Source: a bacterium (GTDB lineage: Bacteria; SZUA-182; DTGQ01). Taken from it: DNA of 64,000 bases. The stretch spans positions 64,561-128,560 of the forward strand of contig JBFLZW010000031.1 in assembly GCA_040755755.1 (NCBI GenBank), read 5' to 3'. Under the pieces are notes generated by a model. It was given only the letters and a program-made list of their open reading frames with translations, was not told where the DNA came from and did no database searches. The position numbers and the translations under genes were made by a program. Of this stretch, positions 1,586-49,556 are shown piece after piece (position 1 is the stretch's first letter; each line of letters begins with the position of its first letter).

Positions 1586-1735
1586 GCTTGAGGAGAATAC
1601 AAAACGAGGCAGGTAAGTAAAGCAATTACAAATGGTTCACAAGTTTTTTACTGACTGGTAAGGCATCATGCGCTGTCTTTTCAGTCGCAGGGATGCGACC
1701 CTATGCACGAATGAAGTTGCTTCTCTGCTACTGTG

Positions 1736-3133: not shown

Positions 3134-3151
3134 GGCATGTACTATCCTTCA

Positions 3152-4075
3152 TCAAGGGCTGAAAAGAAAAAGGCGGCGGATCCGCTTCCACAGCTTTTTT
3201 TTCCTGATCTCACGGATAGCCTGGCGGGCGGCCTTCTCTCCTTCCTGGATACATTCTCTGGCCCGGGAAAAATCAGCCCAGTTAAACTCTCCCACTCTTG
3301 GGCAGATCAGCACATCAGCCTCCCGCAGTTGGTTATTCCGCAGGGAAAACAGGGTGATATCATAGGAGCGCATGACCACGTCGAGCCCGCTCTTCAAAGA
3401 ATGCAGGGGCTTCAACCGGCTCTTGCCCACGTTGCAGGCTATGACCAGATCAGCTCCCAACTGGCGGGACGCATGGATGGGAACCAGACTGATGCAGCCC
3501 CCGTCAACCAGGGTTCTCCCGCCAATGCAGACCGGCGGCAGGATTGACGGTATGGCACAGGAGGCGGCGACAGCTTCCCGGATAAGCCCCTGACTTAAAA
3601 TGATTTCCGTGCCTGATTCGATATCCGTGGCTACCAGATAGAGGGGTATACGGCTCTCCTGAAACCTGGCCTCACCAAAAAGATACGAGCTGTTCTCCCG
3701 GACAACGTCGGGAGAAATAAACGACAGCCTGGTCAATGACCGGCTGAAGAAAATACCCTTTTCCAGTAAGCCGGTGGGGATGACAGGCAGCAGCCATTTC
3801 CTGGGCTTGTTCCCGCTCTCCTCTGCACCCTCCCTGATAAAAGAATCTATCCGGAGTTTTTTAAACGGCTCGCTCTCGAGATACTCCAAAACTCTCTTCT
3901 CAAGACTGTCAGCCCTCGGGTCCAGAGCATAGAGCCCGCCGATAATGGCACCGATGCTGGTACCGACAAGCAGGTCGAATTGGAACCTCTCCTCTTCCAG
4001 CACCTTGAGAACCCCGATATGGGCCAGCCCCCGTGCAGCTCCACCTCCCAGGGCCAATGCAATTTTCATAGCCAT
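3152..4075 (-). CDS. patatin-like phospholipase
   Basis: GGGAARGLAHIGVL (GGGxRG), GTSIGA (GxSxG) and LVDGG catalytic Asp motifs. Likely start at the internal MAMKIALALGGG. Confidence 0.8.
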   Translation of the reverse strand: MAMKIALALGGGAARGLAHIGVLKVLEEERFQFDLLVGTSIGAIIGGLYALDPRADSLEKRVLEYLESEPFKKLRIDSFIREGAEESGNKPRKWLLPVIPTGLLEKGIFFSRSLTRLSFISPDVVRENSSYLFGEARFQESRIPLYLVATDIESGTEIILSQGLIREAVAASCAIPSILPPVCIGGRTLVDGGCISLVPIHASRQLGADLVIACNVGKSRLKPLHSLKSGLDVVMRSYDITLFSLRNNQLREADVLICPRVGEFNWADFSRARECIQEGEKAARQAIREIRKKKLWKRIRRLFLFSP

Positions 4076-8384: not shown

Positions 8385-11300
8385 TTGAAATCACGAAAAG
8401 CCGCTTACCTTGAAGAGGATCCCCTCTGGTATAAGGATGCGATCATTTATGAGCTCCATGTAAAGACCTTTTACGATAGCAATAATGACGGCATCGGAGA
8501 TTTTCAGGGACTTACCCAGAAACTCGACCATCTGGCAAACCTTGGAATTACGGCTGTCTGGCTTCTCCCCTTTTATCCATCTCCCCTGAAGGATGATGGC
8601 TATGATATAGCCAATTATTTTGAAGTCCATCCTGATTATGGCACGCTGCGGGACTTCAAGGAATTTCTCAAGGAAGCCCATCGGCGGGGAATACGGGTCA
8701 TTACCGAGCTTGTTTTAAACCACACTTCCGATCAGCATGACTGGTTTCAGAAGGCCCGAAGAGCAAAACCCGGCTCCAGATGGAGAAATTATTATGTCTG
8801 GGATTCACCGGAAAAGTATAAAGATGCCAGAATTATCTTTAAAGACTTCGAAACTTCCAACTGGGCCTGGGACCCTGTAGCCAAGGCTTACTACTGGCAT
8901 CGTTTTTACTCCCATCAGCCGGATCTGAATTACAATCATCCGCATGTCCAGAAAAGCATGCTGCGGGTCATCGACTACTGGTTGAATATGGGTGTGGACG
9001 GGATGCGCCTTGATGCCGTTCCCTACCTTTATGAACGGGAGGGAACCAATTGCGAAAATCTGCCGGAAACCTATGAGTATCTGAAGAAACTGAGGTCGCA
9101 TATCGACAGCAAGTTCAGAGGCAGGATGCTTCTGGCCGAGGCCAACCAGTGGCCGGAAGATGCGGTCAACTATTTCGGAAATGGTGACGAGTGTCATATG
9201 GCCTTTCATTTTCCGCTGATGCCCAGGATGTTCATGGCCATCCGGATGGAAAACCGGTATCCAATCATGGAAATCCTCAATCAGACCCCGGCGATCCCTG
9301 ATGTCTGTCAGTGGGCGCTCTTTTTGAGGAATCACGATGAGCTTACCCTCGAAATGGTGACCGACGAGGAGCGGGACTATATGTACAGGATCTACGCCAA
9401 AGACCGCACGGCACGGATTAACCTCGGCATTCGAAGGCGTCTGGCACCGCTCCTTGGCAATGACAGAAAAAAGATAGAATTGATGAATTTTCTGCTCCTT
9501 TCCCTGCCGGGGACCCCGGTTATCTATTACGGGGATGAAATCGGCATGGGAGACAACTACTATCTGGGAGACAGAAACGGCGTCAGGACCCCGATGCAGT
9601 GGAGTGGAGACAGAAATGCCGGTTTCTCGCGGGCCAATCCCCAGAAACTCTACCTGCCGGTGATCATTGATCCTGAATACCATTATGAAGCCGTCAATGT
9701 GGAAAACCAGGACAGAAGCCAGGCTTCCCTGCTATGGTGGATGAAGCATTTTATCGCCATGAGAAACAATTTCAAGGCCTTTGGCCGGGGAACGATCGAA
9801 TTCCTCTTTCCGGAGAATATGAAGGTTCTGGCCTTTATCCGGCAGTACCAGGATGAGAACATCCTGGTGGTCGTGAACCTGTCACGGCACCCGCAGCTCG
9901 TCGAGCTTGACCTGGCAAAGTATGCCGGGTATGTGCCGGTGGAGGCTTTCAGCAAGAATTCATTCATTGTTATTAAAAATCATCCCTACGCCCTGACCCT
10001 TGGATCGTATGGCTACTACCTGTTTCTGCTCCAGAGGCAGGAGGAGGGGGGGGCAGTCCGGACCCCGAGGATCCTGCCGGAAATCAAGGTAAGCTGGAAG
10101 TGGGAGATGGTTTTGGCCGGAAAAGCGGGGGAGGAGCTTGAGCGTGAAGTATTGCCGCTTTTCCTGAAAAGTGCCCGGTGGTTCGGAGGGAAGACCCGTC
10201 TGGTCCAGCAGGTCAAGATAGCCAGGGATATCCAGCTCGGCAAGGGCAGCCAGGTCACGCATCTTTTGTTCCTCGATGTTCAGTACACGGAAGGGGTGTC
10301 CGACCTCTATCTTCTTCCCCTCTCTTTTGCTCAGGCAGATCAGGCGCAAAAGATCCTGGAGGAGTCGCCTCAGGGGGTGGTGGCCAGGCTCGTGGTCGAT
10401 GAGACGAGGGGAATCATCTATGACGGCATCTATAACGAGAAATTCCGCCAGGATCTTCTGATGATGATTGTCAGACGGTATAAAATCCGGGATAAGGAAG
10501 GGGAGGTGGCTGCCTATCCGGGGAAGGACCTTCGGGGTTCCATCAGGGGAATGCAATTACCTTCCGAATCCCAGGTACTGCGGGGTGAGCAGAGCAACTC
10601 GTCGATTATCTACGGGAACAGGTTTTTTCTCAAGCTGTTCAGGCGTCTTGAGGAGGGAATGAACTCGGAGCTCGAAATGCTGTGGTTCCTGACTGAAAAG
10701 CTATCCTGTCCTCATGTGCCGCCGTTTGCAGGAGTGATCGAGTATCGAAAGCCGCATGCCGAATCGACCATTCTGGCCATTCTTCAAGGGCTTGTGCCCA
10801 ATGCAGGGGATGCCTGGAGCTATACTCTCGATGCTCTGGAGAGGTATTTTACCGGTGTCCTCTCGAAGTCAGGCGAGATTCAGGAGGTCCCGAAGGCTCC
10901 AGCTTCGCTCCTTGAGATAGCTTATCAGGAAATCCCTCCGCTCATGCAGGAGCTCATCTCGGGTTATCTTGAAATGATAAGCCTGCTGGGCACAAGAACC
11001 GGAGAGCTTCACCTTGCTCTGGCCTCGGACCCGGAAGATCCGTTTTTTGCGCTGGAACCCTATTCACTCCTTCACCAGAGGGCCATTTATCAGTCACTGC
11101 AAACCGGGGCTCAGCGGACTTTTCATCTTCTGGAAAAGAGCCTTGCACATCTGCCTGAGGATGAAAGGAACCTGGTGCAGGAGATCCTGAGCTTAAAGAA
11201 ACAGGTGGTCAGTCTGTTCAAAGCCATTCTCCAGAAGAAGATCTCCGGCGGGAAGATCAGGATCCACGGGGATTACCATCTGGGCCAGGTGCTCTACACG

Positions 11301-14170: not shown

Positions 14171-14872
14171 ATGTACTATCAGGATATTCACCCCTGGGAG
14201 GTCAGCTATCAGGAGGCACTGGAGATTCAGCGAAAGCTCAGCCGTATGGTTGAGACCGGGCCGCTCAGCCAGCCGGTGACCTTGGTCGCCGGGGCCGATA
14301 TCTCTTACTCGAAGATGGATGAGCGCCTGTTTGCCGCAGTTGTGGCCTTTACCTTTCCGGACCTTGAAATCGTGGAACAGGCCAAGGCCGAAGGGCGGGC
14401 CACCTTTCCCTATATTCCGGGATTGCTCAGCTTTCGCGAAGCACCGACACTGCTGACAGCTTTTGCCCGGCTCCGGCATGAGCCCGATGTCATTCTTGTT
14501 GACGGCCAGGGTATTGCTCACCCGCGACGGCTGGGTATTGCCTCTCACCTTGGGATACTCCTTGACCGCCCGACCATAGGCTGTGCCAAAACCCGGCTGA
14601 GCGGAAACTATGTCGAACCCGGAGAGCACAAAGGAGAGAAATCCCCCTTGCAGCATGGCAGGGAAACAATCGGCATGGTGCTCAGAACCCGCACCAGGAC
14701 CAGGCCTCTCTTCATCTCGGTTGGCCATAAAATCGATCTTGAGACAGCAGTGTCGATTGTTTTGGCCTGCACCCGCACCTTCCGGCTTCCTGAACCCACC
14801 CGGCAGGCCCACCTGCTTGCCAATCGTCTCCGAAGGGAATTTTCTCCTGCCCATCGATTACCCGGTGAATGA
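14171..14872 (+). CDS. nfi: endonuclease V (deoxyinosine 3' endonuclease)
   Basis: VAGADISY...AFTFPDLEIVE...ILVDGQGIAHPRRLGIASHLG is the conserved Nfi core. Confidence 0.85.
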   Translation: MYYQDIHPWEVSYQEALEIQRKLSRMVETGPLSQPVTLVAGADISYSKMDERLFAAVVAFTFPDLEIVEQAKAEGRATFPYIPGLLSFREAPTLLTAFARLRHEPDVILVDGQGIAHPRRLGIASHLGILLDRPTIGCAKTRLSGNYVEPGEHKGEKSPLQHGRETIGMVLRTRTRTRPLFISVGHKIDLETAVSIVLACTRTFRLPEPTRQAHLLANRLRREFSPAHRLPGE

Positions 14873-15065
14873 TATCTTTATCCTGATCAGGCAAAAGATA
14901 AATCCTTATTAGACCGTGCTGTATTGCCTGATCACTTCTCCTTGCAGCTAATCGCCGCTCCTTGCAGTTTATCTCTGCCTTTGAATATGATCAATTTTCG
15001 CCGGGTTGTACTGGCCATTCCCGAAAAATTCTCATGAGCTCCATCACTATTAGAGATATTATACC

Positions 15066-15094
15066 TTGACTTTTTAAGACCTTATCTATAAGAT
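15066..15094 (+). promoter_or_regulatory. candidate sigma-70 promoter for galU (TTGACT-17 nt-TAAGAT)
   Basis: -35/-10 hexamers with a 17-nt spacer, ~80 nt upstream of the galU ATG. By eye only. Confidence 0.3.
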
Positions 15095-15171
15095 AGCATA
15101 AATCAGGTAGTGGAGTGCCATCTTTCATTTCGTGATGTATTGTGAAACTCTGAGTAAAGGAGTGTTACCGA

Positions 15172-16107
15172 ATGAACGAGTGCTCAAATATCAAAAAGGC
15201 GATATTCCCCGCCGCAGGTCTTGGAACCAGGTTTCTTCCAGCCACCAAATCCTCTCCAAAAGAAATGCTGCCTCTGGTTGATAAGCCGATGATTCAATAC
15301 GTAGTTGAGGAGGCGGTTGCCTCCGGCATCGAGGATATTACTATTGTCACCGGTCGAGGGAAACGGGCGATCGAGGATTTTTTTGATATTTCCTTTGAGC
15401 TGGAATATGAGCTGCGCAAAAGGGGCAAGGCCGAAATTCTGGAACAGATGCAAATGATATCCCATATGGCAAAAATTTCCTATATCCGGCAGAAAGAGCC
15501 ACTCGGTCTTGGCCATGCCATCCTGGTGCCACGGGATCTTGTCGGAAATCAGGCATTCGCCGTCCTTCTCGGAGACGACATTATCGATGCCGATGTTCCC
15601 TGTCTCAAGCAATTGATCGAAGTTTATAACCGATACAAATGCTCGGTCATCGCCGTGCAAAGAGTACATGACGATATCTCACAGTATGGCGTTATCAAGC
15701 CGAGACATCTGGAAAACAACGTTTATCAGGTTTTAGACCTGGTTGAAAAGCCATCACCGAGTGAGGCCCCTTCCGATCTGGCTATCATTGGCCGATACAT
15801 TTTAACTCCCGAGATATTCGACGTTCTCGAAAGGATAGGAATGGATAAGACCGGCGAAATTCAACTGACCAACGGTTTGCGCGAATTAAGCAAACGCCAG
15901 GCCATCTATGCCTGTGAATTTCAAGGGAAGCGCTACGACGCCGGAAGCAAGCTTGGCTTTCTCCAGGCCACAGTTGAATTTGCCCTGAAATGCCCTGGTC
16001 TGGGCGAAGAGTTCGCTCAGTATCTGGCAAGCCGAAACCTGGCGGATTTACTCGCTGAAAAAAAGACCTCTCAGGTTCCTCACAAAGCGAGTGACCATAT
16101 CCAATGA
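15172..16107 (+). CDS. galU: UTP--glucose-1-phosphate uridylyltransferase
   Basis: AIFPAAGLGTRFLPATKSSPKEMLPLVDKPMIQYVVEEA is the GalU N-terminal signature. Confidence 0.9.
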   Translation: MNECSNIKKAIFPAAGLGTRFLPATKSSPKEMLPLVDKPMIQYVVEEAVASGIEDITIVTGRGKRAIEDFFDISFELEYELRKRGKAEILEQMQMISHMAKISYIRQKEPLGLGHAILVPRDLVGNQAFAVLLGDDIIDADVPCLKQLIEVYNRYKCSVIAVQRVHDDISQYGVIKPRHLENNVYQVLDLVEKPSPSEAPSDLAIIGRYILTPEIFDVLERIGMDKTGEIQLTNGLRELSKRQAIYACEFQGKRYDAGSKLGFLQATVEFALKCPGLGEEFAQYLASRNLADLLAEKKTSQVPHKASDHIQ

Positions 16108-41503: not shown

Positions 41504-41739
41504 GCACCCCGGGATGAGCCGGATATGCAGGGTATGCAGAGCGCGCTGAAGCCGCCTTCTTTCTCCCTCGCCCCTTCGGGGAGAGGGCCGGGGTGAGGGG
41601 CTTTCTCGGTACGTAGCCTAAAGCTATTGACATTGCCCACTGGGGCTCCCTGCAGGCTGCCCACACAAGGGGCAAGGGCAGGCACATGAATGCCTGCCCT
41701 TCCAGGTGATAAAAATCATTACCCCCACATTGGCGCAGA

Positions 41740-42165
41740 TTAGATTCCAAGTGCCAGCAGGGTAGTGGTAGATGTGCTTCCTCCCAGGAGAAGAGCAGTA
41801 GCTATACCGATACTGGTAGAACTGGTGGTGTAGGTTGGATAGGAGTAAGTAGGTGTTGGAGTGGGCGTAGAATAGGTAGTATAGGGAGTATAGCTCGTAT
41901 AGGGAGTAGTGCTGTAAAGAGTGGTGGAGGAAGTGGGAAGTACGCCTAACAGGGCAAGTGTGGTCAATAGTGCCTGAGCACCCCGGTAAGGAATAAGCTC
42001 TGGAGGAACGGGAACATAGGGAGAATACCCAAAGGGGCTGTAAACATAGGTATAATAGGGACCGGAAGCACTGTAGTAGGCATCGGCAGTGGATACAAAA
42101 GCCGGGGAGGATATTAACACTACCATAAAAAGCCACAAAGCTGCTTTTCCAATTTTTGCTCTCAT
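41740..42165 (-). CDS. secreted Tyr/Thr/Ser/Pro-rich low-complexity protein
   Basis: Good RBS (AAGGGA). Signal peptide MRAKIGKAALWLFMVVLISSPAFVSTADA. Mature part is dominated by Y/T/S/P repeats (YTSYTPYTTYSTPTPTPTYSYPTYTT) with a hydrophobic C-terminal tail. Preceded by a 585-bp AT-rich region. Confidence 0.5.
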   Translation of the reverse strand: MRAKIGKAALWLFMVVLISSPAFVSTADAYYSASGPYYTYVYSPFGYSPYVPVPPELIPYRGAQALLTTLALLGVLPTSSTTLYSTTPYTSYTPYTTYSTPTPTPTYSYPTYTTSSTSIGIATALLLGGSTSTTTLLALGI

Positions 42166-42750
42166 TGCGTTTCCCTTTCATAATCTTGAAGCTTTCCGAT
42201 TTGTTTTCTCATAAACCCTGACCTGCTTACCACGGGCAAAGCATAATAGCCATCTCTCACCCCCTTTGTGAACTCAGTGCGAACACTCTTCTCGCCGGAA
42301 AAATGAGAAAAACAGATGCATGAAAATAGCTGGAGAAGAAGTCGCTTAATTAAAGAGATTGTTAAAAAAGGCTGGGGAACTGGGGAGAAATAATTATTGT
42401 ATCGTATGAGCCGTTGAATGAATGAAAATATGTGTCTATTATATTGAGACGAATTTTTTTCGATTTCGTTATGGAACGGCCTTTGTTTAATTGAGAGGCT
42501 ATCTGAAAATCTCCCTCCAGATGAAGAACTGTACCTGCCGTCATCGAGAAGCTGGAGAAAAAGGTTAAAAACATCCGGCCTCAATGTCCTTTTTCCATTT
42601 CATCCAGTAAAATAACGCTGTAGGACCTAACAGTTTTAACTTATACTGAAATATGTTAAGGATTAATCTATTAATATATAATTAATCGTGGGCACATCTC
42701 CTTCCAGAATCAAATTGACATTTATGCATAAATGATGCATACTTGTGCAT

Positions 42751-42948
42751 ATGAGGACGACATTAAACATTGATGACAAAATTTTAGAGAAGGCTTCACT
42801 GTTAACAGGTGTAAAGGAAAAGACAGCCTTAGTGCGTCTTGGATTAGAGGCCCTTATAGCTCGTGAAAGCAGTAAGCGACTCGCAAGGCTGGGTGGCTCT
42901 GAAAAGAATCTTCGGCCTATTCCAAGACGAAGGTTTAAAGAATCATAA
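42751..42948 (+). CDS. vapB: VapB-type antitoxin
   Basis: MRTTLNIDDKILEKA...ALVRLGLEAL matches ribbon-helix-helix-type VapB antitoxins. Ends 2 nt before the PIN gene. Confidence 0.55.
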   Translation: MRTTLNIDDKILEKASLLTGVKEKTALVRLGLEALIARESSKRLARLGGSEKNLRPIPRRRFKES

Positions 42949-42950
42949 TC

Positions 42951-43328
42951 ATGGTTATCGTCGATACTTCTCTTTGGGTTACCCACCTGAGAGAAGGCAA
43001 CAACCACCTTGAAGAATTGCTGCTGAATGGAGAAGTACTCTGTCATCCCTTCATCGTCGGTGAATTGGCGTGTGGGAACATCAAAAACAGAGTTGAATTA
43101 CTGACGCTTCTTCAATCACTTGAGATGGCTCCAACTGTCACCTTGGATGAACTATTGTATTTTATTGAGCGAAATAGATTAATGGGCAAAGGGGTCGGTT
43201 TTGTTGATGCACACCTATTAGCCTCAGCCCAATTAGCGGAAGTGCCCTTATGGACTTCTGATAAGAGATTGAAATCATCGGCAATTGACCTTAAAGTCGC
43301 CTATAAAGACGGGGCTGTTATATTCTGA
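42951..43328 (+). CDS. vapC: PIN-domain toxin VapC
   Basis: MVIVDTSLWV...VDAHLLASA...WTSDKRL are the conserved PIN acidic positions. 125 aa. Confidence 0.8.
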   Translation: MVIVDTSLWVTHLREGNNHLEELLLNGEVLCHPFIVGELACGNIKNRVELLTLLQSLEMAPTVTLDELLYFIERNRLMGKGVGFVDAHLLASAQLAEVPLWTSDKRLKSSAIDLKVAYKDGAVIF

Positions 43329-43368: not shown

Positions 43369-44334
43369 TTAATGTTTCCAGAGCTTCTTCAAAATGGAAA
43401 GCGGGCCTTTGGTGTCTTTATTCTCAGGGGCATCCTTGTGCTGGTGTCCTTCCCCTTTTTGATCGGAGGAAGGGGAACCCGGACGCTCATTGGAGGAGGG
43501 CTTTGGTATTTCAGCCAGGCGGCCGCTGCCCAGAAAGCGAAACAGGGGCCCCAAGGGGCCGAGGGACAGCTCATCGCCGGGATTGAGCGGTGACTGAAGG
43601 TCGATGGGCTGCCGGTTGACCATAATCAATCGTTGTCCCGTGAGGTCCTTGACCCAGTAGCGATCCTGACTGTAGAAGACCTGGACATGCTGACCCTGGA
43701 TACCAGGATGGTCAAGCTGAAAATCGCAGCTTGCCTCTTTTCCCATGGTAACCGGCACCGCTTTGTATGAGCGCAGCGTAGGGCCATACTGGATAATGAG
43801 GGGGACTCTCACGTTGTGCACCACGACTTTGCCTGCTGCCTCGACAGGCTCAGGATGAAGGGGTGGGGGTTCGGGCTGGAGGAAGGGGTGCTCAGGCTCC
43901 AGCCGGGAAGATGAATCCGGTTCACTCTCCGGGGGATGATGCGGCGGTGAAGGCAGGGGGCCGCTTTGCTGCGGAGCCGGGAGAACGCTTTCTTTCCCGG
44001 CTTGGTTTTCCTGAATCTGGGTCAGGAAGCTGACCTTTGGCCCGCCTTCGGCAAAAGACAACACGTCTCCGTTCTTCAGGTACGCCTCTTCAACCACTCT
44101 CTTGCCGTTGACAAAGGTGCCATTGGTGCTGTGGTCTACCAATTTAAAGCGATTTCCGTCTCGGACTATTTCGGCATGGTTGCGGGAAATTATGGTCAGA
44201 TCCGCCGGGAACTTCAAATGACATGACTGGTGGCGGCCAATGGCAATCCTGGCTTCGGAAAACTCCTGAATTTCGCCCTTGAGAGGCCCTTGAATATGAA
44301 CGAGTTGAACGGTAATAACCGGCTGTTGCTTCAT
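43369..44334 (-). CDS. tandem FHA-domain protein with Pro-rich linker
   Basis: Two FHA cores (IGRHQSCHLKF...SRNHAEI...GSTNGTFVNG and MGKEASCDFQL...GQHVQVF...GQRLIMVN) separated by a PPHHPPESEPD linker. Confidence 0.8.
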   Translation of the reverse strand: MKQQPVITVQLVHIQGPLKGEIQEFSEARIAIGRHQSCHLKFPADLTIISRNHAEIVRDGNRFKLVDHSTNGTFVNGKRVVEEAYLKNGDVLSFAEGGPKVSFLTQIQENQAGKESVLPAPQQSGPLPSPPHHPPESEPDSSSRLEPEHPFLQPEPPPLHPEPVEAAGKVVVHNVRVPLIIQYGPTLRSYKAVPVTMGKEASCDFQLDHPGIQGQHVQVFYSQDRYWVKDLTGQRLIMVNRQPIDLQSPLNPGDELSLGPLGPLFRFLGSGRLAEIPKPSSNERPGSPSSDQKGEGHQHKDAPENKDTKGPLSILKKLWKH

Positions 44335-44521
44335 TGGGAATAAAAATTATCTGATGGTAAATGGTTTATCATCCTGTTTGCAGTCCAGAACTCAATTATA
44401 GCCTGAATCTCGCATTTCTTGCAAGAAAATAATTATTTACAACCTGCCATAAGTTTACTAAAATAGGATTGACTTTTAACCTTTCTCATGAGAGGATCTA
44501 TAACCACCAAATTGAAAGGCG

Positions 44522-45250
44522 ATGCCTATGACAGTCTCATTTGGACAATCAGATCCTGGCCTCAGACGCTCGAATAATGAAGATGCTTTCATCATCATAT
44601 CCGAAGCGGACCTTCTGGCAGTGGCCGATGGAATGGGCGGGGCAGCGGCTGGTGAGGTGGCCAGCCGGATATTTATTGAATCCGCCTCGGCACTTTCCGG
44701 CGGTGCGAAGTGTCAATCCGAGCAGGAAGCCCTTGTCAGGGTCCAGGATATCTTCAGATCAGCCAATGAAAAAATTATTAACCATGCCAGGCAGAACCCT
44801 CAGTGCCGGGGAATGGGGTGTACCGCCGAAGTCATTGTCTTCACCAGCCAGGGTTATGTTCTTGGCCATGTAGGAGACAGCCGCACCTATCTGCTGCGAG
44901 CGGGACAACTGAAACGATTGACGCATGATCACTCTGTGGTCCAGGAGCAGATCGACCAGGGCCTCATCACGCCAGAGGATGCCAGAAAACATCCCCTCAA
45001 AAGTGTTATCCTCAGAGCTGTAGGTGTCAACGAACAGTTGGCCCTTGACCTGATACGGGATAAAACCGTTCCCGGCGACCTTTTTCTCCTCTGCTCCGAC
45101 GGTCTGACAGATATGATTGACGATTCCTTCATCAAGGATATCCTTTCCCGTCCCCTGACTCTTTCTCAAAAGGGAACCCAGTTAATCGAGGCTGCCAAAT
45201 CAGCCGGGGGGTATGACAACGTAACGGTAGTTCTCGGTGAAGTAAAGTGA
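44522..45250 (+). CDS. PP2C-family Ser/Thr protein phosphatase
   Basis: RRSNNEDAF...VADGMGGAAAGE...GDSR...CSDGL motifs of PPM phosphatases. Confidence 0.85.
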   Translation: MPMTVSFGQSDPGLRRSNNEDAFIIISEADLLAVADGMGGAAAGEVASRIFIESASALSGGAKCQSEQEALVRVQDIFRSANEKIINHARQNPQCRGMGCTAEVIVFTSQGYVLGHVGDSRTYLLRAGQLKRLTHDHSVVQEQIDQGLITPEDARKHPLKSVILRAVGVNEQLALDLIRDKTVPGDLFLLCSDGLTDMIDDSFIKDILSRPLTLSQKGTQLIEAAKSAGGYDNVTVVLGEVK

Positions 45251-46204
45251 TTGACCATGAGCAAGTTCACTCGGGCGTGGATGGTCCTGGCCGTTGCCGC
45301 TGTCACGGTTTTTCTGCTGTTTGCGTTTGCCGGGGCTGGAAGCGCGGACGTGGAGTTCAGATCGTATCCTTTTCCTCTGCCGGAGGTGGAGGATGTCATT
45401 TCACGATGGCTGCACAGCAACGGCTTTGAGATCGTCCGTGCTTGCCGGGAAGGGGGCCAGGTCCACCTGGGAGCGATGAAAGAAGGCGAGCGCTGGCAGA
45501 TCATGCTCAAGCCCCGCTCTCCCCTGGCCTCGGAGGTCCAGGCCGAATACTTCCGGCAGGGGCAGCCCGATCAGGCGCTCCAGAAAGAACTATGGGCCCA
45601 TCTGCAAAGATATGCCCGGAATCCTGCTGCCGAACAAGAGGATTACGGTGTCCCCTCCCCGGTTTTGGCCCACAGTGAATCGGTGGTCTGCATCAAAGCC
45701 GAGCGGGGAGGAAAACCGATTCAGTTCTCCGGTTTCATTATTGACCGGGAGGGGTTAATATTAGGAACAGCCCATGACCTTGAAGGGATCCAGGAGGTCA
45801 GGGTTATTCTCGATAACGGCCATGAGCTGAACGGACAACTATGCAGGGCCGATCATGACCGGGATTTGGCTCTTATTGCCGTCAAGACCAGGTTCGATGC
45901 CTGCATTTCTCTTTCCCGGGGACGAAACCTCCTGAGCATGGGTGAAAAGGTGTTTTCGATCGGATGTCCCGTCAATCTGCAGGGAACGGTCCATGCCGGT
46001 TTCATCGACGGCCCTCCGAGGAAGGTGAATACTCTGCTCCTGTGGCAGGTGAATATGGAAGTCCTGCCGGGAAGCAGCGGCAGCCCGGTGTTTGATACCC
46101 AGGGAAACGTGGTGGCTGTTGTCAAGGGCAGATACCGCGGCACGGATTCAGTGGGCTTTCTGATCCCAATGGAGACGATCAGAGAATTTATGGGACAAAA
46201 ATAG
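45251..46204 (+). CDS. membrane-anchored trypsin-like (S1) serine protease with N-terminal domain of unknown function
   Basis: N-terminal TM/signal. C-terminal chymotrypsin fold with GTAHDL (His), DLALI (Asp) and GSSGSPVFD (Ser). No PDZ. Starts 1 nt after the PP2C stop. Confidence 0.75.
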   Translation: MTMSKFTRAWMVLAVAAVTVFLLFAFAGAGSADVEFRSYPFPLPEVEDVISRWLHSNGFEIVRACREGGQVHLGAMKEGERWQIMLKPRSPLASEVQAEYFRQGQPDQALQKELWAHLQRYARNPAAEQEDYGVPSPVLAHSESVVCIKAERGGKPIQFSGFIIDREGLILGTAHDLEGIQEVRVILDNGHELNGQLCRADHDRDLALIAVKTRFDACISLSRGRNLLSMGEKVFSIGCPVNLQGTVHAGFIDGPPRKVNTLLLWQVNMEVLPGSSGSPVFDTQGNVVAVVKGRYRGTDSVGFLIPMETIREFMGQK

Positions 46205-46217
46205 GACGGAAGTTAGC

Positions 46218-47450
46218 ATGTTATTACAGTATGGACGGTATCAGATCGAAAATGAGCTTGGCAAGGGAGCTATGGGGGTGGTCTACCGGGCCCATGATCC
46301 CCGGATTGACCGGTCAGTCGCTTTGAAGGTCCTGCGTCCGGACCGGGTCACCAACGAGGATTTCGTCCAGCGGTTCCTCAAGGAGGCTAAAGCGATTGGC
46401 AGGCTTTCGCATCCCAATATCGTTACTGTCTATGACGTCGGGCAGGATCAGGACACGATCTTTATTGCCATGGAATTTCTCGATGGCAAACCTCTTCATA
46501 CGATCTTGCAGGAAGCAAAACCGGATATTGGCACCATCGTCGATCTTGGCATCCAGGTAGCCTGTGCCCTCGATTATGCCCACCAGAAGGGAATCGTTCA
46601 CCGGGATATCAAGCCCGGCAATATTATTGTCCAGCCCGATGGCCGGGTGAAAATAACCGACTTCGGAATTGCCCATATCGAAGATTCCTCGGCCACGCAG
46701 CAGACCAGGGCGGGAGAGATTCTCGGCAGCCCGGCTTATATGTCCCCCGAACAGGTGATGGGCCAGCCGGTGGACGGACGCTCAGATCTGTATTCGCTGG
46801 GCGTTGTCCTCTACGAGCTGTGCGCCGGGAAGCGGCCCTTCCAGGAAGATAACCTGGCCGCTCTTTTCAGGGCCATTACTCAGGATAATCCCCCTGAACT
46901 GTCAGCTCTCGACCCGGCAATCCCCCCCCTGCTTTCGCAGACAATCGTAAAGTGCCTGAGCAAGCAGCCGGAGAAACGCTTTCAGACCGGCCTTGCCCTG
47001 GCCGATGCCCTGAAGACCTGCCTGAAGAAGACAAAAGCCGCCCCGACCGGACAGGATCGGCCAAAGGGCAGGTTCCTGGTGCTCCTGATCGCGGTTTTCC
47101 TGATCAGTATCACGGCGGGGATTTTGGTCTATTTCTTCGGCTCAGCCAGGGATGATCGTCTTCCTCCTCCTTCTCCTCCTCCGTCGGTTACGGAGCAGCA
47201 ACCGCCGCCGACTGGAGAAGCGCCTCCGGTGATTGCTTTTCTCAAGGTCGAAAGTACGCCCGTCGGTGCCCAGATTTTCGTGGATGGAACCCTGCACGGG
47301 AAAACGCCTGCCCGGCTTGAGCTTGCGCCCGGAAAACATGAGGTCCGGCTGACTTTGCCCGCTTATTTTGACTGGGAAGCCCAGGTTCAGTTACCCGAAA
47401 AGGTCGAGACCCCTCTCCTGGTCCGGCTGATGCCGACCGAGGAGGAGTAG
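46218..47450 (+). CDS. Hanks-type Ser/Thr protein kinase with TM segment and extracytoplasmic PEGA domain
   Basis: Kinase motifs GKGAMGVVY, HRDIKPGN, DFG, SPE. TM segment FLVLLIAVFLISITAGILVYFF. C-terminal ESTPVGAQIFVDGTLHGKTPARLELAPGKHEVRL is a PEGA domain. Confidence 0.9.
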   Translation: MLLQYGRYQIENELGKGAMGVVYRAHDPRIDRSVALKVLRPDRVTNEDFVQRFLKEAKAIGRLSHPNIVTVYDVGQDQDTIFIAMEFLDGKPLHTILQEAKPDIGTIVDLGIQVACALDYAHQKGIVHRDIKPGNIIVQPDGRVKITDFGIAHIEDSSATQQTRAGEILGSPAYMSPEQVMGQPVDGRSDLYSLGVVLYELCAGKRPFQEDNLAALFRAITQDNPPELSALDPAIPPLLSQTIVKCLSKQPEKRFQTGLALADALKTCLKKTKAAPTGQDRPKGRFLVLLIAVFLISITAGILVYFFGSARDDRLPPPSPPPSVTEQQPPPTGEAPPVIAFLKVESTPVGAQIFVDGTLHGKTPARLELAPGKHEVRLTLPAYFDWEAQVQLPEKVETPLLVRLMPTEEE

Positions 47451-47483
47451 TGGTCAGTGGTCAGTGATCAGTGGTTAGTGGCT
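47449..47483. repeat. five tandem AGTGGTC-type heptamers (AGTGGTC AGTGGTC AGTGATC AGTGGTT AGTGGCT)
   Basis: Read directly. The first unit overlaps the kinase stop codon. A second array of the same heptamer is at 59121-59176. Confidence 0.6.
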
Positions 47484-47488
47484 GGAAT

Positions 47489-47535
47489 CCAGAAGTCAGG
47501 AGAAAAACAGCCCTTATTCTGACTCCTGACTCCTG
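47489..47535. repeat. GTCAG-repeat hairpin element (CCAGAAGTCAGGAG...CTGACTCCTGACTCCTG)
   Basis: Imperfect 13-bp stem with a 16-20-nt loop. Related copy at 57107-57173. Confidence 0.5.
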
Positions 47536-47561
47536 AATTCTTTAAAAAAAAGGAGTGTCAG

Positions 47562-49556
47562 ATGAAGATTACCCGAAAATGCCGTGCCGTCAGTTTGATC
47601 CTCACCCTTGGTTTTTTCCTCTCGGGAATGGGCGTAAGCTATGGCCAGATCGCACCCGGCCAGTCCGCTCCGCTCTTTTCCCTGAAGGATATCGCCGGAA
47701 AATCCCATGACCTGGCCCAGATGAAAAATCAGCCCATGATTATTCTCTACTTCTTCGATGCAGAATCGAGGCCGAGCCAGGAAGGAATCGTAAGCCTGAA
47801 TCAATTGGCCAGACAATACAAGGGCTATGACCTGACCACCCTGGCCATTACCCTCTCTCCGCGGGCCAAGATCGATCAGTTCAGGAAGCAGACCGACCTA
47901 GGGTTTCCCATCATCCAGGACCAGTCCGGGATCAGCGACCGGTATCAGGCCCGGCAGATACTGCCCACGGTCTGCATTATCGGGCCGGGTCTTCGCGTTC
48001 TCGACCATTTTCAGGGCGGAGGCAAAACCACCGAAGTGATGCTGGTCAGGCTGGCCGAGAGGGAATTACAGAGAAAACAGACCACGCTGGCTAAAGCCAT
48101 CAGCGCCGAGGTGGTAAAAAAGAACCCTCACAATACCAGGGCCAAAACAGTGGCTGGTTATGCAGCCCTCAGGGAGGGGAACCTCAAGCAGGCGCAGGAG
48201 GTTTTCCAGAACCTGGCCAAAGACAGCGGACAGGCAGAGGTACTTGGCAAAGAAGGGCTGGCCGCCGTTCATGTCCAGAAGGGAGAGGCGGCCAGAGCCC
48301 TTGAGCTGGCCAGAGAGATAGAGCACAAAGCTCCTGAAAGATCCTATGTCCATGTCATCAAGGGAGATATTCTCGCCAGTCAGGATAAAAAGCAGGAGGC
48401 CGAGGCGGAATATCAGAAAGCGATAGCCAAGAAGGATGCCGAGCCGTACCAGGAAGCGGTCAGGCATAACCAGCTTGGCCGGTTGTATGCAAGCAGCGGA
48501 CAGTATCAAAAGGCGCGTGAGCTTTACGACCAGGCGGTGGCCATCGATCCTTATTACATCGAGGGGACGACCAACAAGGGGATAACCTACCAGAAAGAAG
48601 GCAATTGGGATAAAGCCCTGGAATCCTTTCAGCAGGCCGTCACCCTTGACAAGGGCGATACCTTTGCGGTTGTCCTGGCCAAAAAAGCCCAGGAGATGCT
48701 GGAGTTCCAGAAAGACAACGAGCGTAAAAAACGGGTTGACCAACTGGTGAAAGACCTGGCCGAGCGGTACCGCAGTCAGGAGAAGTCCAGGCCAAAGGAT
48801 GAAGATACCTGGACCTCCCGGCCCATGATTATCTCCTTTGTCGATTTTCAGGAAAAAGGCGGCCTGGCCGAGCGGGATGGCTTCTCGACCGTGATGACCA
48901 GCCAGTTAAGCGATTCCCTGACCGCCTCGAACCGGGTCCAGGTGGTGGAGCGGGTGCTGATCGAGCGTCTCATGGAGGAGTTGAACCTTGGTTCTTCGGA
49001 TCTGGCTGATCAGGAAACTGCGCTCAAGCTTGGCCGGGTACTGGCCGCCAAACTGATCGGCACCGGATCCCTCTTTTACCTGCCCAACGGGACGCTCCTG
49101 AATCTCAGGCTCATCGACAGCGAAACCTCAGCCATCCCTTTGGTGATCACCCGGCAAATCAGCCCCCAGGCATCTCTGGAAAAAGAGCTTTACGCCCTCA
49201 ACCGGCAGATATTAAGGACAGTCATGGAAAAGTATCCCCTGCACGGGTATCTGGTTGAAGTCACAGGAGATCAGGCCCTGGTTAACCTCGGCTCCCGCCA
49301 GGGAGTGGTTCAGGGGACACGGTTTGAAGTGCTGGAAGAAGGCAAGCCGATCACCTACAAGGGGAAGACGCTCCAGAGCTCACCAAAAATCATCGCCCAG
49401 GCCGAGGTTGTCCGGGTTGAGCCTGACCTGTGCCATATCCGGATCATCAGCCAGGAAAGACCCCTGAAAACCGATGACAAGGTCCAGGAGAGAATCGCGG
49501 AAGCGGTCCTGGGAGAAGGCAGCGAAGAAGGTAGTGGAAGCAGGGATCATGAATAG
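47562..49556 (+). CDS. secreted multidomain protein: Cys-less peroxiredoxin/thioredoxin-like fold + TPR repeats + C-terminal CsgG/LpoB-like domain
   Basis: Signal peptide. AhpC/TSA-like N-terminus (PLFSLKDIAGKSHDLAQMKNQPMIILYFFDAESRPSQEG ... FPIIQD) lacks the catalytic Cys. Central TPR units. The C-terminal region matches the CsgG/LpoB/TolB-N-like pattern (ISFVDFQEKGG...RVQVVERVLIERLMEELNLGSSDLADQETALKLGRVLAAKLIGTGSL). Confidence 0.6.
   Translation: MKITRKCRAVSLILTLGFFLSGMGVSYGQIAPGQSAPLFSLKDIAGKSHDLAQMKNQPMIILYFFDAESRPSQEGIVSLNQLARQYKGYDLTTLAITLSPRAKIDQFRKQTDLGFPIIQDQSGISDRYQARQILPTVCIIGPGLRVLDHFQGGGKTTEVMLVRLAERELQRKQTTLAKAISAEVVKKNPHNTRAKTVAGYAALREGNLKQAQEVFQNLAKDSGQAEVLGKEGLAAVHVQKGEAARALELAREIEHKAPERSYVHVIKGDILASQDKKQEAEAEYQKAIAKKDAEPYQEAVRHNQLGRLYASSGQYQKARELYDQAVAIDPYYIEGTTNKGITYQKEGNWDKALESFQQAVTLDKGDTFAVVLAKKAQEMLEFQKDNERKKRVDQLVKDLAERYRSQEKSRPKDEDTWTSRPMIISFVDFQEKGGLAERDGFSTVMTSQLSDSLTASNRVQVVERVLIERLMEELNLGSSDLADQETALKLGRVLAAKLIGTGSLFYLPNGTLLNLRLIDSETSAIPLVITRQISPQASLEKELYALNRQILRTVMEKYPLHGYLVEVTGDQALVNLGSRQGVVQGTRFEVLEEGKPITYKGKTLQSSPKIIAQAEVVRVEPDLCHIRIISQERPLKTDDKVQERIAEAVLGEGSEEGSGSRDHE

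What the first reader, a model, noticed from the sequence alone, without database searches (positions are those of the whole stretch)
41740..42165. Secreted Tyr/Thr/Ser/Pro-rich low-complexity protein behind a 585-bp AT-rich region
The ORF has a good RBS and an ADA-type signal-peptidase site. Its mature part is almost entirely YT(S)P repeats and ends in a hydrophobic tail. It has no recognisable enzymatic domain. Candidate roles are an adhesive or fibre-forming surface protein, or a ribosomal peptide-type precursor. CsgG-like lipoprotein genes lie 6-8 kb away. The long AT-rich upstream region with palindromes suggests tight regulation. It may also be a spurious ORF in a purine-rich strand, but the RBS and signal peptide argue against that.
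Basis: inference. Interest (0 to 1): 0.5.

Follow-up and report, generated by a model that had tools for sequence, protein, structure and literature searches.

The report
New family of charge-free secreted proteins
The ORF is a real gene for a small exported protein with almost no charged residues, the founding example of an undescribed family found only in a few uncultured sediment bacteria; it probably builds or coats an envelope structure, but its function is untested.

Summary
The ORF at 41740-42165 (minus strand, 141 aa) is a real gene. It has 61 relatives at 90% clustering, or 22 clusters at 50%. All come from metagenomes or MAGs, all are 121-204 aa, and none matches Pfam, NCBIfam, PHROGs or PDB. 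Against its closest orthologue, substitutions fall 13/7/34 by codon position and all length differences are in frame.

The shared architecture is:
- a Sec signal peptide (A-x-A cleavage site);
- a Tyr/Phe/Pro/Gly-rich stretch;
- one invariant Arg in an R-x-A motif;
- 85-110 residues of Thr/Leu/Gly/Ala/Ser/Pro, with no charged residue at all in 49 of 64 members;
- one to three copies of the module 'IGxTTALLLGG-STTT-LLxLGI', the last ending exactly at the C-terminus.

Its 'hydrophobic tail' is the most conserved motif of the family.

AlphaFold2 gives no confident fold. The neighbourhood is not conserved, and nothing supports a link to the weak CsgG-like domain 5.4 kb away or a RiPP role.

My best reading, which is inference, is a self-associating envelope or coat protein. 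It would work like chaplins or sulfur-globule proteins but is not a member of either family. Interest is moderate.

The parts
41740..42165 (-). Coding sequence, 141 aa plus stop; identical to NCBI MAG protein AB1611_10740 (P0001)
   Evidence: 100% identical database entry; purifying selection in this frame; best codon likelihood of the six frames.
42079..42165 (-). Signal peptide, residues 1-29: MRAKIGKAALWLFMVVLISSPAFVSTADA, predicted cleavage ADA|YY
   Evidence: Direct reading. It is the only 19-residue window above Kyte-Doolittle 1.6. It is also the only part AlphaFold2 models confidently, as a helix with pLDDT about 90. A-x-A sites are conserved across the family.
41992..42078 (-). Aromatic/Pro-rich N-terminal region of the mature protein, residues 30-58 (YYSASGPYYTYVYSPFGYSPYVPVPPELI)
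   Evidence: Family alignments A1 and A2. P36, Y38, Y40, G46 and P49 are invariant or nearly so in A1.
41935..41991 (-). First conserved module, residues 59-77 (PYRGAQALLTTLALLGVLP). It holds the family's invariant Arg61 (41983-41985) and Ala63.
   Evidence: R61 and A63 are invariant across the 28 sequences of A2. Arg is the single basic residue of the mature protein in nearly all members.
41815..41934 (-). Y/T/S/P low-complexity spacer, residues 78-117. It is specific to the window/L007/L004 subfamily and takes the place of an internal hydrophobic module.
   Evidence: Alignment A1. A 9-nt periodic DNA repeat lies at 41869-41904. In-frame indels separate the window from L007 and L004.
41743..41814 (-). 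C-terminal module, residues 118-141 (SIGIATALLLGGSTSTTTLLALGI); the most conserved motif of the family and always at the very C-terminus
   Evidence: invariant G, T, L, G positions; C-termini of the 64 members.
42173..42178 (-). Shine-Dalgarno-like AAAGGG, 7 nt upstream of the ATG
   Evidence: Direct reading. Conserved in L007 and L004. SD-like sites precede all family genes examined.
42243..42272 (-). Promoter-like site: TTCACA, 18 nt, TATTAT. Its spacer is the block AAGGGGGTGAGA (42255-42266), which is identical in the three orthologous loci.
   Evidence: 10 of 12 consensus matches; block conserved at -101, -101 and -134. Function is inferred only.
41674..41701 (-). Perfect 11-bp inverted repeat, 38 nt past the stop codon. 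On the mRNA it folds as a 12-bp GC-rich hairpin with no U-run. It is a likely 3' end or stabiliser.
   Evidence: repeat I5; hairpin present in both the MFE and the centroid fold. The terminator scan found no canonical terminator.
42166..42744 (.). 579-bp AT-rich (38% GC) non-coding gap shared with the divergent vapBC operon. The proximal ~315 nt align at 76.5% with the orthologous locus L007.
   Evidence: mismatches are 26/33/30 by position modulo 3 and L007 has stops in all frames, so the 140-aa ORF at 42162-42584 is not coding.

Best explanation
The gene encodes a small protein that the Sec pathway exports, with the signal peptide cleaved after Ala29. The mature 112-residue chain has net charge about zero (one Glu, one Arg) and is disordered on its own. 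It carries two short Leu/Thr/Gly modules, one at residues 59-77 after the invariant Arg and one at the extreme C-terminus, joined by a Tyr/Thr/Ser/Pro spacer.

My proposal is that it is a structural envelope protein. The hydrophobic modules would drive self-association, or docking onto a hydrophobic surface or membrane leaflet, in the periplasm or on the cell surface of a diderm bacterium. The hydroxyl-rich spacer would form an extended stretch, possibly glycosylated or cross-linked through Tyr. It would then act as a coat, matrix or fibre subunit. This is how chaplins and sulfur-globule envelope proteins work.

Shown here: the gene is real, the family is conserved, the export signal is present, the composition is charge-free, the architecture is modular, there are several paralogues per genome, and no known domain matches.

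Inferred: cleavage site, cellular location, self-assembly and physiological role.
For: Family and selection:
- Real conserved family: 12 hits with the single sequence, 22 clusters at 50% identity among 1.84 billion representatives, and 61 proteins with the profile.
- Purifying selection in this frame.

Sequence features:
- Signal peptide and A-x-A sites throughout the family.
- Almost always exactly one Arg and no Lys in the mature protein. In 49 of 64 members there is no charged residue in the 85-110 residues after that Arg, a stretch that is T 28%, L 21%, G 11%.
- The hydrophobic modules stay below the transmembrane threshold of Kyte-Doolittle 1.6.
- The modules recur one to three times per protein, which fits assembly units better than a sorting signal.
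- AlphaFold2 finds no globular fold: pLDDT 59.5 and 56.8.

Genomic setting:
- Two to four paralogues per genome, some in tandem, as in chaplin, curlin and Sgp gene sets.
- The hosts are diderm: LptE is encoded beside two members.
- One subfamily sits directly downstream of a second secreted, charge-poor family with no Pfam match (WWPLPPYNTLWPLW...), which suggests a multi-component structure.
- The genes are stand-alone with long AT-rich upstream regions.

Published analogues: Sgp proteins are small, Sec-exported, extremely hydrophobic and repetitive, with regularly spaced Pro (PMC10386293). Chaplins are small secreted hydrophobic domains present once or twice per protein (PMC3079736).
Against: - No experimental or expression data exist for any member.
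- No assembly, secretion or anchoring machinery is linked to the genes, so passage across the outer membrane has no support.
- AlphaFold2 places short helices, not beta hairpins, at the modules, though at low confidence.
- There is no sequence similarity to any known amyloid or coat protein.
- The strict C-terminal position of the last module and the invariant Arg could instead point to processing or anchoring.
Confidence: 0.45

Rival explanations
1. It is a membrane-anchored stalk protein. After signal-peptide cleavage the C-terminal 23-residue hydrophobic module stays in the inner membrane as a stop-transfer anchor, or enters a membrane leaflet as a re-entrant hairpin. The Thr/Ser/Pro/Tyr region then projects into the periplasm as a mucin-like, possibly glycosylated spacer.
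For: The C-terminal module averages about 1.5 on the Kyte-Doolittle scale over 23 residues (my own sum; 19-residue windows score 1.0-1.6), close to the transmembrane threshold. It always sits at the very C-terminus. AlphaFold2 draws a helix-break-helix there, at low confidence.
Against: No 19-residue window outside the signal peptide reaches 1.6. No basic residues follow the segment, whereas stop-transfer anchors and all known C-terminal sorting domains have them. The same module also occurs internally one or two times, and its core is a conserved GG(G)-STTT stretch, which is unusual inside a transmembrane helix.
Confidence: 0.2
2. It is a precursor of secreted hydrophobic peptides. A trypsin-like protease cuts after the invariant Arg, or between modules. 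This releases one to three uncharged peptides of about 25 residues, or a charge-free polypeptide of about 80 residues, that acts as a signal, surfactant or membrane-active toxin.
For: A single invariant Arg sits in a conserved R-x-A context about 30-50 residues after the signal peptide, and everything after it is charge-free. The highly conserved module is present in one to three copies separated by variable spacers, like a multi-core precursor.
Against: No protease, maturation enzyme, ABC exporter or immunity gene recurs beside family genes. The trypsin-like gene in the window (45251-46204) belongs to an FHA/kinase cluster found at no other family locus. There are no Cys residues or other RiPP hallmarks. 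Uncharged peptides with 21% Leu and 28% Thr would be barely soluble.
Confidence: 0.12
3. It is a curli-type amyloid subunit secreted through the nearby CsgG-like protein.
For: A weak CsgG match (PF03783, 25.2 bits, residues 424-504 of a 664-aa protein) lies at 47562-49556, 5.4 kb away.
Against: There is no Curlin_rpt match and the mature protein has almost no Gln (0.9%) and no Asn. The CsgG-like domain is partial, is fused to AhpC and TPR domains, has no lipobox, and sits in an FHA/PP2C/protease/kinase cluster. No CsgG-like gene lies near any other family member.
Confidence: 0.03
4. It is a spurious ORF that stays open only because the coding strand is pyrimidine-rich.
For: Strand composition is strongly skewed (GC skew up to +0.53). 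A second frame on the same strand is also open, giving the 185-aa ORF at 41624-42181. Codon usage is atypical: GC3 is 0.42 against 0.63 in neighbouring genes.
Against: There are 61 homologues with conserved motifs, signal peptides and SD sites. Substitutions against L007 are 13/7/34 by codon position, with 26 synonymous against 19 non-synonymous codons and only in-frame indels. This frame has the best codon likelihood, -33 against -57 to -99.
Confidence: 0.01

Closest known systems
Chaplins (ChpA-H) of Streptomyces, Pfam PF03777
   Same: They are small Sec-exported proteins made of one or two copies of a conserved hydrophobic module. Each genome has several paralogues, there is no enzymatic domain, and they self-assemble into a hydrophobic coat (PMC3079736).
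   Different: There is no sequence match. The family here has no conserved Cys pair, and its module is about 22 residues of Leu/Thr/Gly rather than about 40. The hosts are diderm, uncultured sediment bacteria rather than actinomycetes. No sortase-anchored long forms exist. Amyloid formation is untested.
Sulfur globule envelope proteins SgpA, SgpB, SgpC and SgpD of Allochromatium vinosum
   Same: They carry a Sec signal peptide, are 11-13 kDa, extremely hydrophobic and repetitive with regularly spaced Pro, and are encoded by stand-alone genes. They are periplasmic structural proteins of a diderm that coat a hydrophobic inclusion (PMC10386293). From my own recollection, not checked here, SgpA-C are rich in Gly and Tyr, like the N-terminal region of this family.
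   Different: Homology was not tested because no Sgp sequences or models were available. No sulfur-oxidation genes occur in the window or beside other members. The Thr/Leu-rich charge-free domain and the C-terminal LLxLGI motif are not known Sgp features.
Curli (CsgA/CsgB) and Fap functional amyloids
   Same: They are secreted repeat proteins of diderm bacteria in which short strand-turn-strand units stack into fibres.
   Different: There are no Gln/Asn-rich curlin repeats and no Pfam match. There is no linked CsgEFG or FapF secretion operon.
C-terminal sorting domains (PEP-CTERM, GlyGly-CTERM, LPXTG and similar)
   Same: They share a conserved motif plus a hydrophobic stretch at the extreme C-terminus. 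The GG that precedes the hydrophobic run loosely recalls GlyGly-CTERM.
   Different: There is no basic cluster after the hydrophobic run, because the protein ends at ...LLALGI. The module is also repeated internally. No NCBIfam sorting-signal model matches. No sortase, exosortase or rhombosortase gene was seen nearby.
Extensin or mucin-like Ser/Thr/Pro/Tyr-rich wall proteins
   Same: The window subfamily's spacer (TPYTSYTPYTTYSTPTPTPTYSYPTY) has the Pro/hydroxy-amino-acid composition and the Y-x-Y motifs typical of extended wall proteins that can be glycosylated or Tyr-cross-linked. This comparison rests on my own knowledge.
   Different: This is an analogy of composition only. The spacer is not conserved across the family, where Tyr is only 1.3% of the post-Arg region overall.

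Membership tests
The new family defined here (no accession) | Sec signal peptide with an A-x-A site, then an aromatic/Pro-rich stretch, then the single invariant Arg in an R-x-A motif | tested here: met
   The window protein has ADA|YY, YYTYVYSPFGYSPY and PYR61GA63. R61 and A63 are invariant in alignment A2.
The new family defined here (no accession) | A post-Arg region free of charged residues that ends in ...TALLLGG-STTT-LL[AL]LGI at the C-terminus | tested here: met
   There are 80 residues after R61 with no D, E, K, R or H, and the C-terminus is STSTTTLLALGI. The profile scores 148.8 bits, E 1.6e-38.
Chaplin (PF03777) | The roughly 40-residue chaplin domain, detected by the Pfam model, with its conserved Cys pair | tested here: not met
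   No member hits the Pfam model at E<=1. The mature window protein has no Cys.
Chaplin (PF03777) | Assembly into amyloid fibrils or a surface-active film | not testable with these tools
   This needs purified protein (ThT, FTIR, EM). AlphaFold2 monomer models are uninformative at pLDDT below 60.
Curli CsgA/CsgB (PF07012) | Curlin repeats (S-x5-Q-x-G-x-G-N-x-A-x3-Q) | tested here: not met
   No Pfam hit. The mature protein is 0.9% Gln and 0% Asn.
Curli CsgA/CsgB (PF07012) | Genetic linkage to the csgEFG secretion genes | tested here: not met
   The only candidate is a weak, partial CsgG domain inside a 664-aa AhpC/TPR protein 5.4 kb away. Nothing comparable lies near the other family loci.
Sulfur globule proteins (Sgp) | Small, Sec-exported, extremely hydrophobic, repetitive with regularly spaced Pro | tested here: inconclusive
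   The general properties are shared (PMC10386293). That is a resemblance of composition, not homology.
Sulfur globule proteins (Sgp) | Sequence homology to SgpA-D and co-occurrence with sulfur-oxidation (Dsr/Sox) genes | not tested
No such genes were seen in the window or in the loci examined.
PEP-CTERM, GlyGly-CTERM, LPXTG and other C-terminal sorting signals | A signature motif, then a transmembrane helix, then a basic cluster at the C-terminus, matched by the NCBIfam/TIGRFAM models | tested here: not met
   No NCBIfam hit at E<=1. The proteins end in LGI, LGL or LGLL with no basic residue.
RiPP precursor | Adjacent maturation enzymes, protease or transporter, and a leader peptide rather than a Sec signal | tested here: not met
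   The neighbourhoods of about 13 independent loci share no such genes. A Sec-type signal peptide is present.

The most novel reading that the evidence does not exclude
The family, together with the co-located W/P/L-rich secreted family (WWPLPPYNTLWPLW...), would form a so far unknown, essentially charge-free proteinaceous envelope structure in an uncultured lineage near Schekmanbacteria and Nitrospirota. This could be a hydrophobic sheath, a coat for a periplasmic or extracellular hydrophobic or mineral phase, or a fibre. In the window subfamily the fibre would be unusually Tyr-rich (15% of the mature protein). Maturation would be by cleavage at the single invariant Arg.
Probability: 0.12. 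Interest if true: 0.75.

Novelty: new variant of a known kind. Interest (0 to 1): 0.42.

Why it matters
The window gene now belongs to a defined family with a clear signature: one invariant Arg, then about 90 residues with no charge, then a module fixed at the C-terminus. All its members were previously unlinked 'hypothetical proteins', and they occur only in poorly known sediment bacteria.

Polypeptides this long with no ionisable side chain are rare. Where such proteins are understood, as with chaplins, hydrophobins and sulfur-globule proteins, they build interfaces and coats. If that holds here, the family would be a marker for an unseen envelope structure in an uncultured lineage, and a compact candidate for self-assembling protein material.

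If it does not hold, the family still needs an explanation. Its C-terminal 22 residues are more conserved than most enzymes' active sites.

Tried and rejected
Searches that found nothing:
- Pfam, NCBIfam and PHROGs scans of the family, and a PDB profile search.
- Full-text search for the family motifs in the literature.
- Viral contigs and plasmids, so there is no sign of a mobile-element origin.
- Sigma-54, sigma-28 and sigma-E consensus scans, and shared 8-mers, in the upstream regions of family genes.
- Rfam scan of the window: only one tRNA, far from the locus.

Structure prediction:
- Two AlphaFold2 runs were made: the window protein with 28 sequences, and the central member P0009 with 59. 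Mean pLDDT was 59.5 and 56.8, and only the signal peptide was confident. I therefore ran no fold search, because the matches would be meaningless.

Context and reach:
- I looked for a conserved gene neighbourhood. None covers the whole family. Only subfamily-specific pairs appear, with a sulfatase-TPR gene and with the WPL-family gene, and neither is present in the window.
A narrower alignment returned only 4 loci.
- I tried to gauge how related the host genomes are from their GH57 genes, but these proved to be different paralogues.

Upstream region:
- RNAalifold on the conserved leader gave a weak structure of -8 kcal/mol from only three sequences. I do not count this as evidence.
- The 140-aa ORF in the upstream gap is rejected as non-coding.
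- The 185-aa alternative-frame ORF over the gene is rejected by the codon-position pattern of substitutions and by codon likelihood.

Full report
**1. The observation**

The ORF lies at 41740-42165 on the minus strand and encodes 141 aa from an ATG. An SD-like AAAGGG sits 7 nt upstream of the start. The N-terminus has a basic n-region, a 17-residue hydrophobic core and the sequence STADA|YY, which fits a type I signal peptidase site.

The predicted mature protein of 112 residues is T 22%, Y 15%, S 13%, P 12.5% and L 12.5%. It has one Glu, one Arg, and no Lys, His, Cys, Met or Trp.

The gap to the divergent vapB gene is 579 bp at 38% GC, against 51% for the window. The description is therefore accurate, with three corrections:
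- A conserved hydrophobic module (residues 59-77) was overlooked.
- The two larger inverted repeats in the gap lie at the vapB end.
- The 'CsgG-like lipoprotein genes' are one weak partial domain in a 664-aa AhpC/TPR protein without a lipobox.

**2. The gene is real**

The protein is identical to a MAG entry, AB1611_10740 from an unclassified 'bacterium'. Three searches found relatives:
- The single sequence found 12 relatives.
- An exhaustive profile search of 1.84 billion cluster representatives found 22.
- A profile search of the 5.8-billion-protein set found 61.

All relatives are 121-204 aa and all come from metagenomes or MAGs.

Against the closest orthologue (locus L007), 96 of 141 codons are identical, 26 differ synonymously and 19 non-synonymously. 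Differences by codon position are 13/7/34, and length differences against L007 and L004 are multiples of three. Codon likelihood is best in this frame, at -33 against -57 to -99 for the other five. That includes the other open frame on the same strand, which gives a 185-aa ORF and is a by-product of the pyrimidine-rich coding strand. Every family gene examined has an SD-like site.

The upstream 140-aa ORF is not coding. Mismatches against L007 fall 26/33/30 by position modulo 3, and L007 has stops in all frames.

**3. Anatomy of the family**

- (a) A Sec-type signal peptide ends in A-x-A, followed by Gln or Tyr.
- (b) Next come 30-50 residues rich in Tyr, Phe, Pro and Gly, for example QFYYPPV.PFYGYGYGY.
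- (c) One invariant Arg follows, in an R-[GSNT]-A context. It is almost always the only basic residue of the mature protein.
- (d) After the Arg come 85-110 residues that are T 28%, L 21%, G 11%, A 9.5%, S 8.6% and P 8%. In 49 of 64 members this stretch has no charged residue. Most of the rest have a single Asp or His at position R+3.
- (e) Within that stretch there are one to three copies of a module of about 22 residues, [ST]-[IL]-G-x-T-T-A-L-L-L-G-G-(G)-x-S-T-T-T-L-L-[AL]-L-G-I. The last copy ends exactly at the C-terminus and is the most conserved part of the protein.

The window protein and its two orthologues (L007, L004) form a short subfamily. In it, an internal module is replaced by a Tyr/Thr/Ser/Pro spacer that changes by in-frame indels and contains a 9-nt periodic DNA repeat. 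The 'hydrophobic tail' is the family signature.

**4. What it is not**

- No member matches Pfam, NCBIfam (including all C-terminal sorting-signal models) or PHROGs, and a PDB profile search found nothing.
- No window outside the signal peptide reaches the usual transmembrane threshold; the modules score 1.0-1.6.
- Two AlphaFold2 runs gave no confident fold. Mean pLDDT was 59.5 and 56.8, only the signal peptide was confident, and short low-confidence helices appeared at the modules.
- The family is absent from viral contigs and plasmids.

**5. Genomic context**

In the window the gene is convergent with rsmE and divergent from a vapBC toxin-antitoxin pair. Beyond that lies an FHA / PP2C / trypsin-like / Ser-Thr kinase (PEGA) / AhpC-TPR-CsgG-like cluster. 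On the other side lie hrcA-grpE, mazG, transketolase and ftsEX.

Across the other loci the neighbours differ. Only rsmE is shared, with the closest orthologue.

Two subfamily-specific associations exist:
- An 800-888-aa arylsulfatase-like + TPR gene lies directly downstream of family genes in two genomes that are 61% diverged at that gene (L001/L015/L016 and L009).
- A second secreted, charge-poor family with no Pfam or NCBIfam match (WWPLPPYNTLWPLWSPVLSP...) lies directly upstream of family genes twice in L011. It flanks P0024, the window genome's own paralogue, in L008. It also lies 3-6 kb from P0026 in L010.

Neither partner is in the 64-kb window.

Genomes carry two to four paralogues, some in tandem. 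The hosts are diderm, since LptE is encoded next to two members. They are unclassified: the window's Lon protease is 68% identical to Ca. Schekmanbacteria and about 66% to Nitrospirota, and all closer hits are labelled only 'bacterium'. At least two host MAGs come from mangrove or mudflat sediment.

**6. Regulatory region**

The proximal 315 nt upstream align at 76.5% with L007. Three orthologous loci share the block AAGGGGGTGAGA about 100-134 nt upstream, together with the SD region.

In the window this block is the spacer of a promoter-like site, TTCACA-18-TATTAT at 42272-42243. The block is also a near-perfect SD sequence, and 6 nt after its G-run an 8-codon ORF begins in the window and in L007, but not in L004. 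These two readings exclude each other and neither was tested.

A stable 12-bp hairpin without a U-run lies 38 nt past the stop codon. Long AT-rich upstream regions (29-41% GC) recur at most stand-alone family genes. No alternative-sigma consensus is shared, and no Rfam family matches near the locus.

**7. Interpretation**

The most economical reading is an exported, intrinsically disordered, almost uncharged protein. Its short Leu/Thr/Gly modules would mediate self-association or docking to a hydrophobic surface. Its hydroxyl-rich spacers would be extended. This describes a coat, matrix or fibre subunit of the envelope.

It resembles two known cases in how it would work:
- Chaplins are small secreted proteins with one or two hydrophobic modules and several paralogues per genome (PMC3079736).
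- Sulfur-globule envelope proteins are Sec-exported, 11-13 kDa, extremely hydrophobic and repetitive with spaced prolines, and act in the periplasm of a diderm (PMC10386293).

It is not a member of the chaplin or curli families by any test I could run. Homology to Sgp proteins could not be tested, because no Sgp sequences or models were available.

Two rivals remain open. One is a C-terminally anchored mucin-like stalk. The other is a precursor cut at the invariant Arg into hydrophobic peptides. The curli/CsgG and RiPP ideas lack support, and the spurious-ORF idea is refuted.

**8. Verdict**

This is a real gene and a new, narrowly distributed protein family with a striking charge-free design. 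Its function is unknown and is inferred from composition and architecture alone. Interest is moderate. It would rise sharply if the family, perhaps with its W/P/L-rich partner, proves to build a new envelope structure.

Noticed in passing
L011:7332-7901 and 9474-10025; L008:2-97 and 1476-1928; L010:11830-13080 and 14537-15565: A second undescribed secreted family (signal peptide, then WWPLPPYNTLWPLWSPVLSP...PGLTWDP..YPWLLYNT.SG..YYDPL.GINLWP). It is rich in Trp, Pro and Leu and poor in charged residues, and the short forms end in ...AIAGLTLI. It has no Pfam or NCBIfam match. It sits directly upstream of family genes twice in L011, flanks the window genome's other paralogue (P0024) in L008, and lies 3-6 kb from P0026 in L010. 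It is not present in the window.
   Followed up: partly
L001:1958-4624, L009:9025-11436, L015:1039-3582, L016:1037-3703: An arylsulfatase-like (PF00884/PF01663) + TPR protein of 800-888 aa lies directly downstream of family genes in two genomes whose copies of it are 61% identical. This may be a subfamily-specific functional pair. It is intriguing next to a Tyr/Ser/Thr-rich substrate candidate. There is no equivalent in the window.
   Followed up: partly
window 42745-43328 (+), with repeats at 42648-42700 and 42710-42754: A VapB/VapC (PIN) toxin-antitoxin pair runs divergent from the ORF. The inverted repeat at 42710-42754 overlaps a promoter-like TTGACA-17-CATACT and looks like the usual autoregulatory operator. 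Other family loci also sit near TA or defence-like genes: RHH/PemK in L003 and DUF4276 + AAA_15 in L012.
   Followed up: partly
window 43369-49556: A signalling cluster: a protein with two FHA domains, a PP2C phosphatase, a secreted trypsin-like protease, a Ser/Thr kinase with a PEGA domain, and a 664-aa AhpC/TSA + TPR protein with weak CsgG and FlgT_C matches. It is unrelated to the ORF as far as the other loci show.
   Followed up: partly
window 42227-42266 (-): The block AAGGGGGTGAGA, identical in three orthologous loci, is a near-perfect Shine-Dalgarno sequence. An 8-codon ORF follows it in the window (MAIMLCPW) and in L007 (MDLILYPQ), but not in L004. It overlaps the predicted -35/-10 spacer, so it is either a promoter or operator element or a leader-peptide RBS. 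This is unresolved.
   Followed up: partly
window 41545-41610: A GC-rich element (…CTCCCTCGCCCCTTCGGGGAGAGGGCCGGGGTGAGGGG…) lies between the convergent rsmE gene and the ORF. It can form a hairpin. It is present once in the window, with 0 matches expected by chance. From memory, similar sequences occur as intergenic repeats in other bacteria.
   Followed up: partly
window 41740-42165: The gene's synonymous codon choice departs from its neighbours: GC3 is 0.42 against 0.63, with a preference for ACT, CTT and GCT. Together with the AT-rich flank and the adjacent TA module, this could mean either high-expression bias or recent acquisition.
   Followed up: no
window 1733-3547 (+): A 604-aa ORF with no Pfam or NCBIfam match. 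I did not examine it further.
   Followed up: no
L005:9011-10297: Two family paralogues lie in tandem, one of about 220-249 aa and one of 162 aa, separated by about 30 nt. An OmpA-family glycine-zipper protein follows them.
   Followed up: partly
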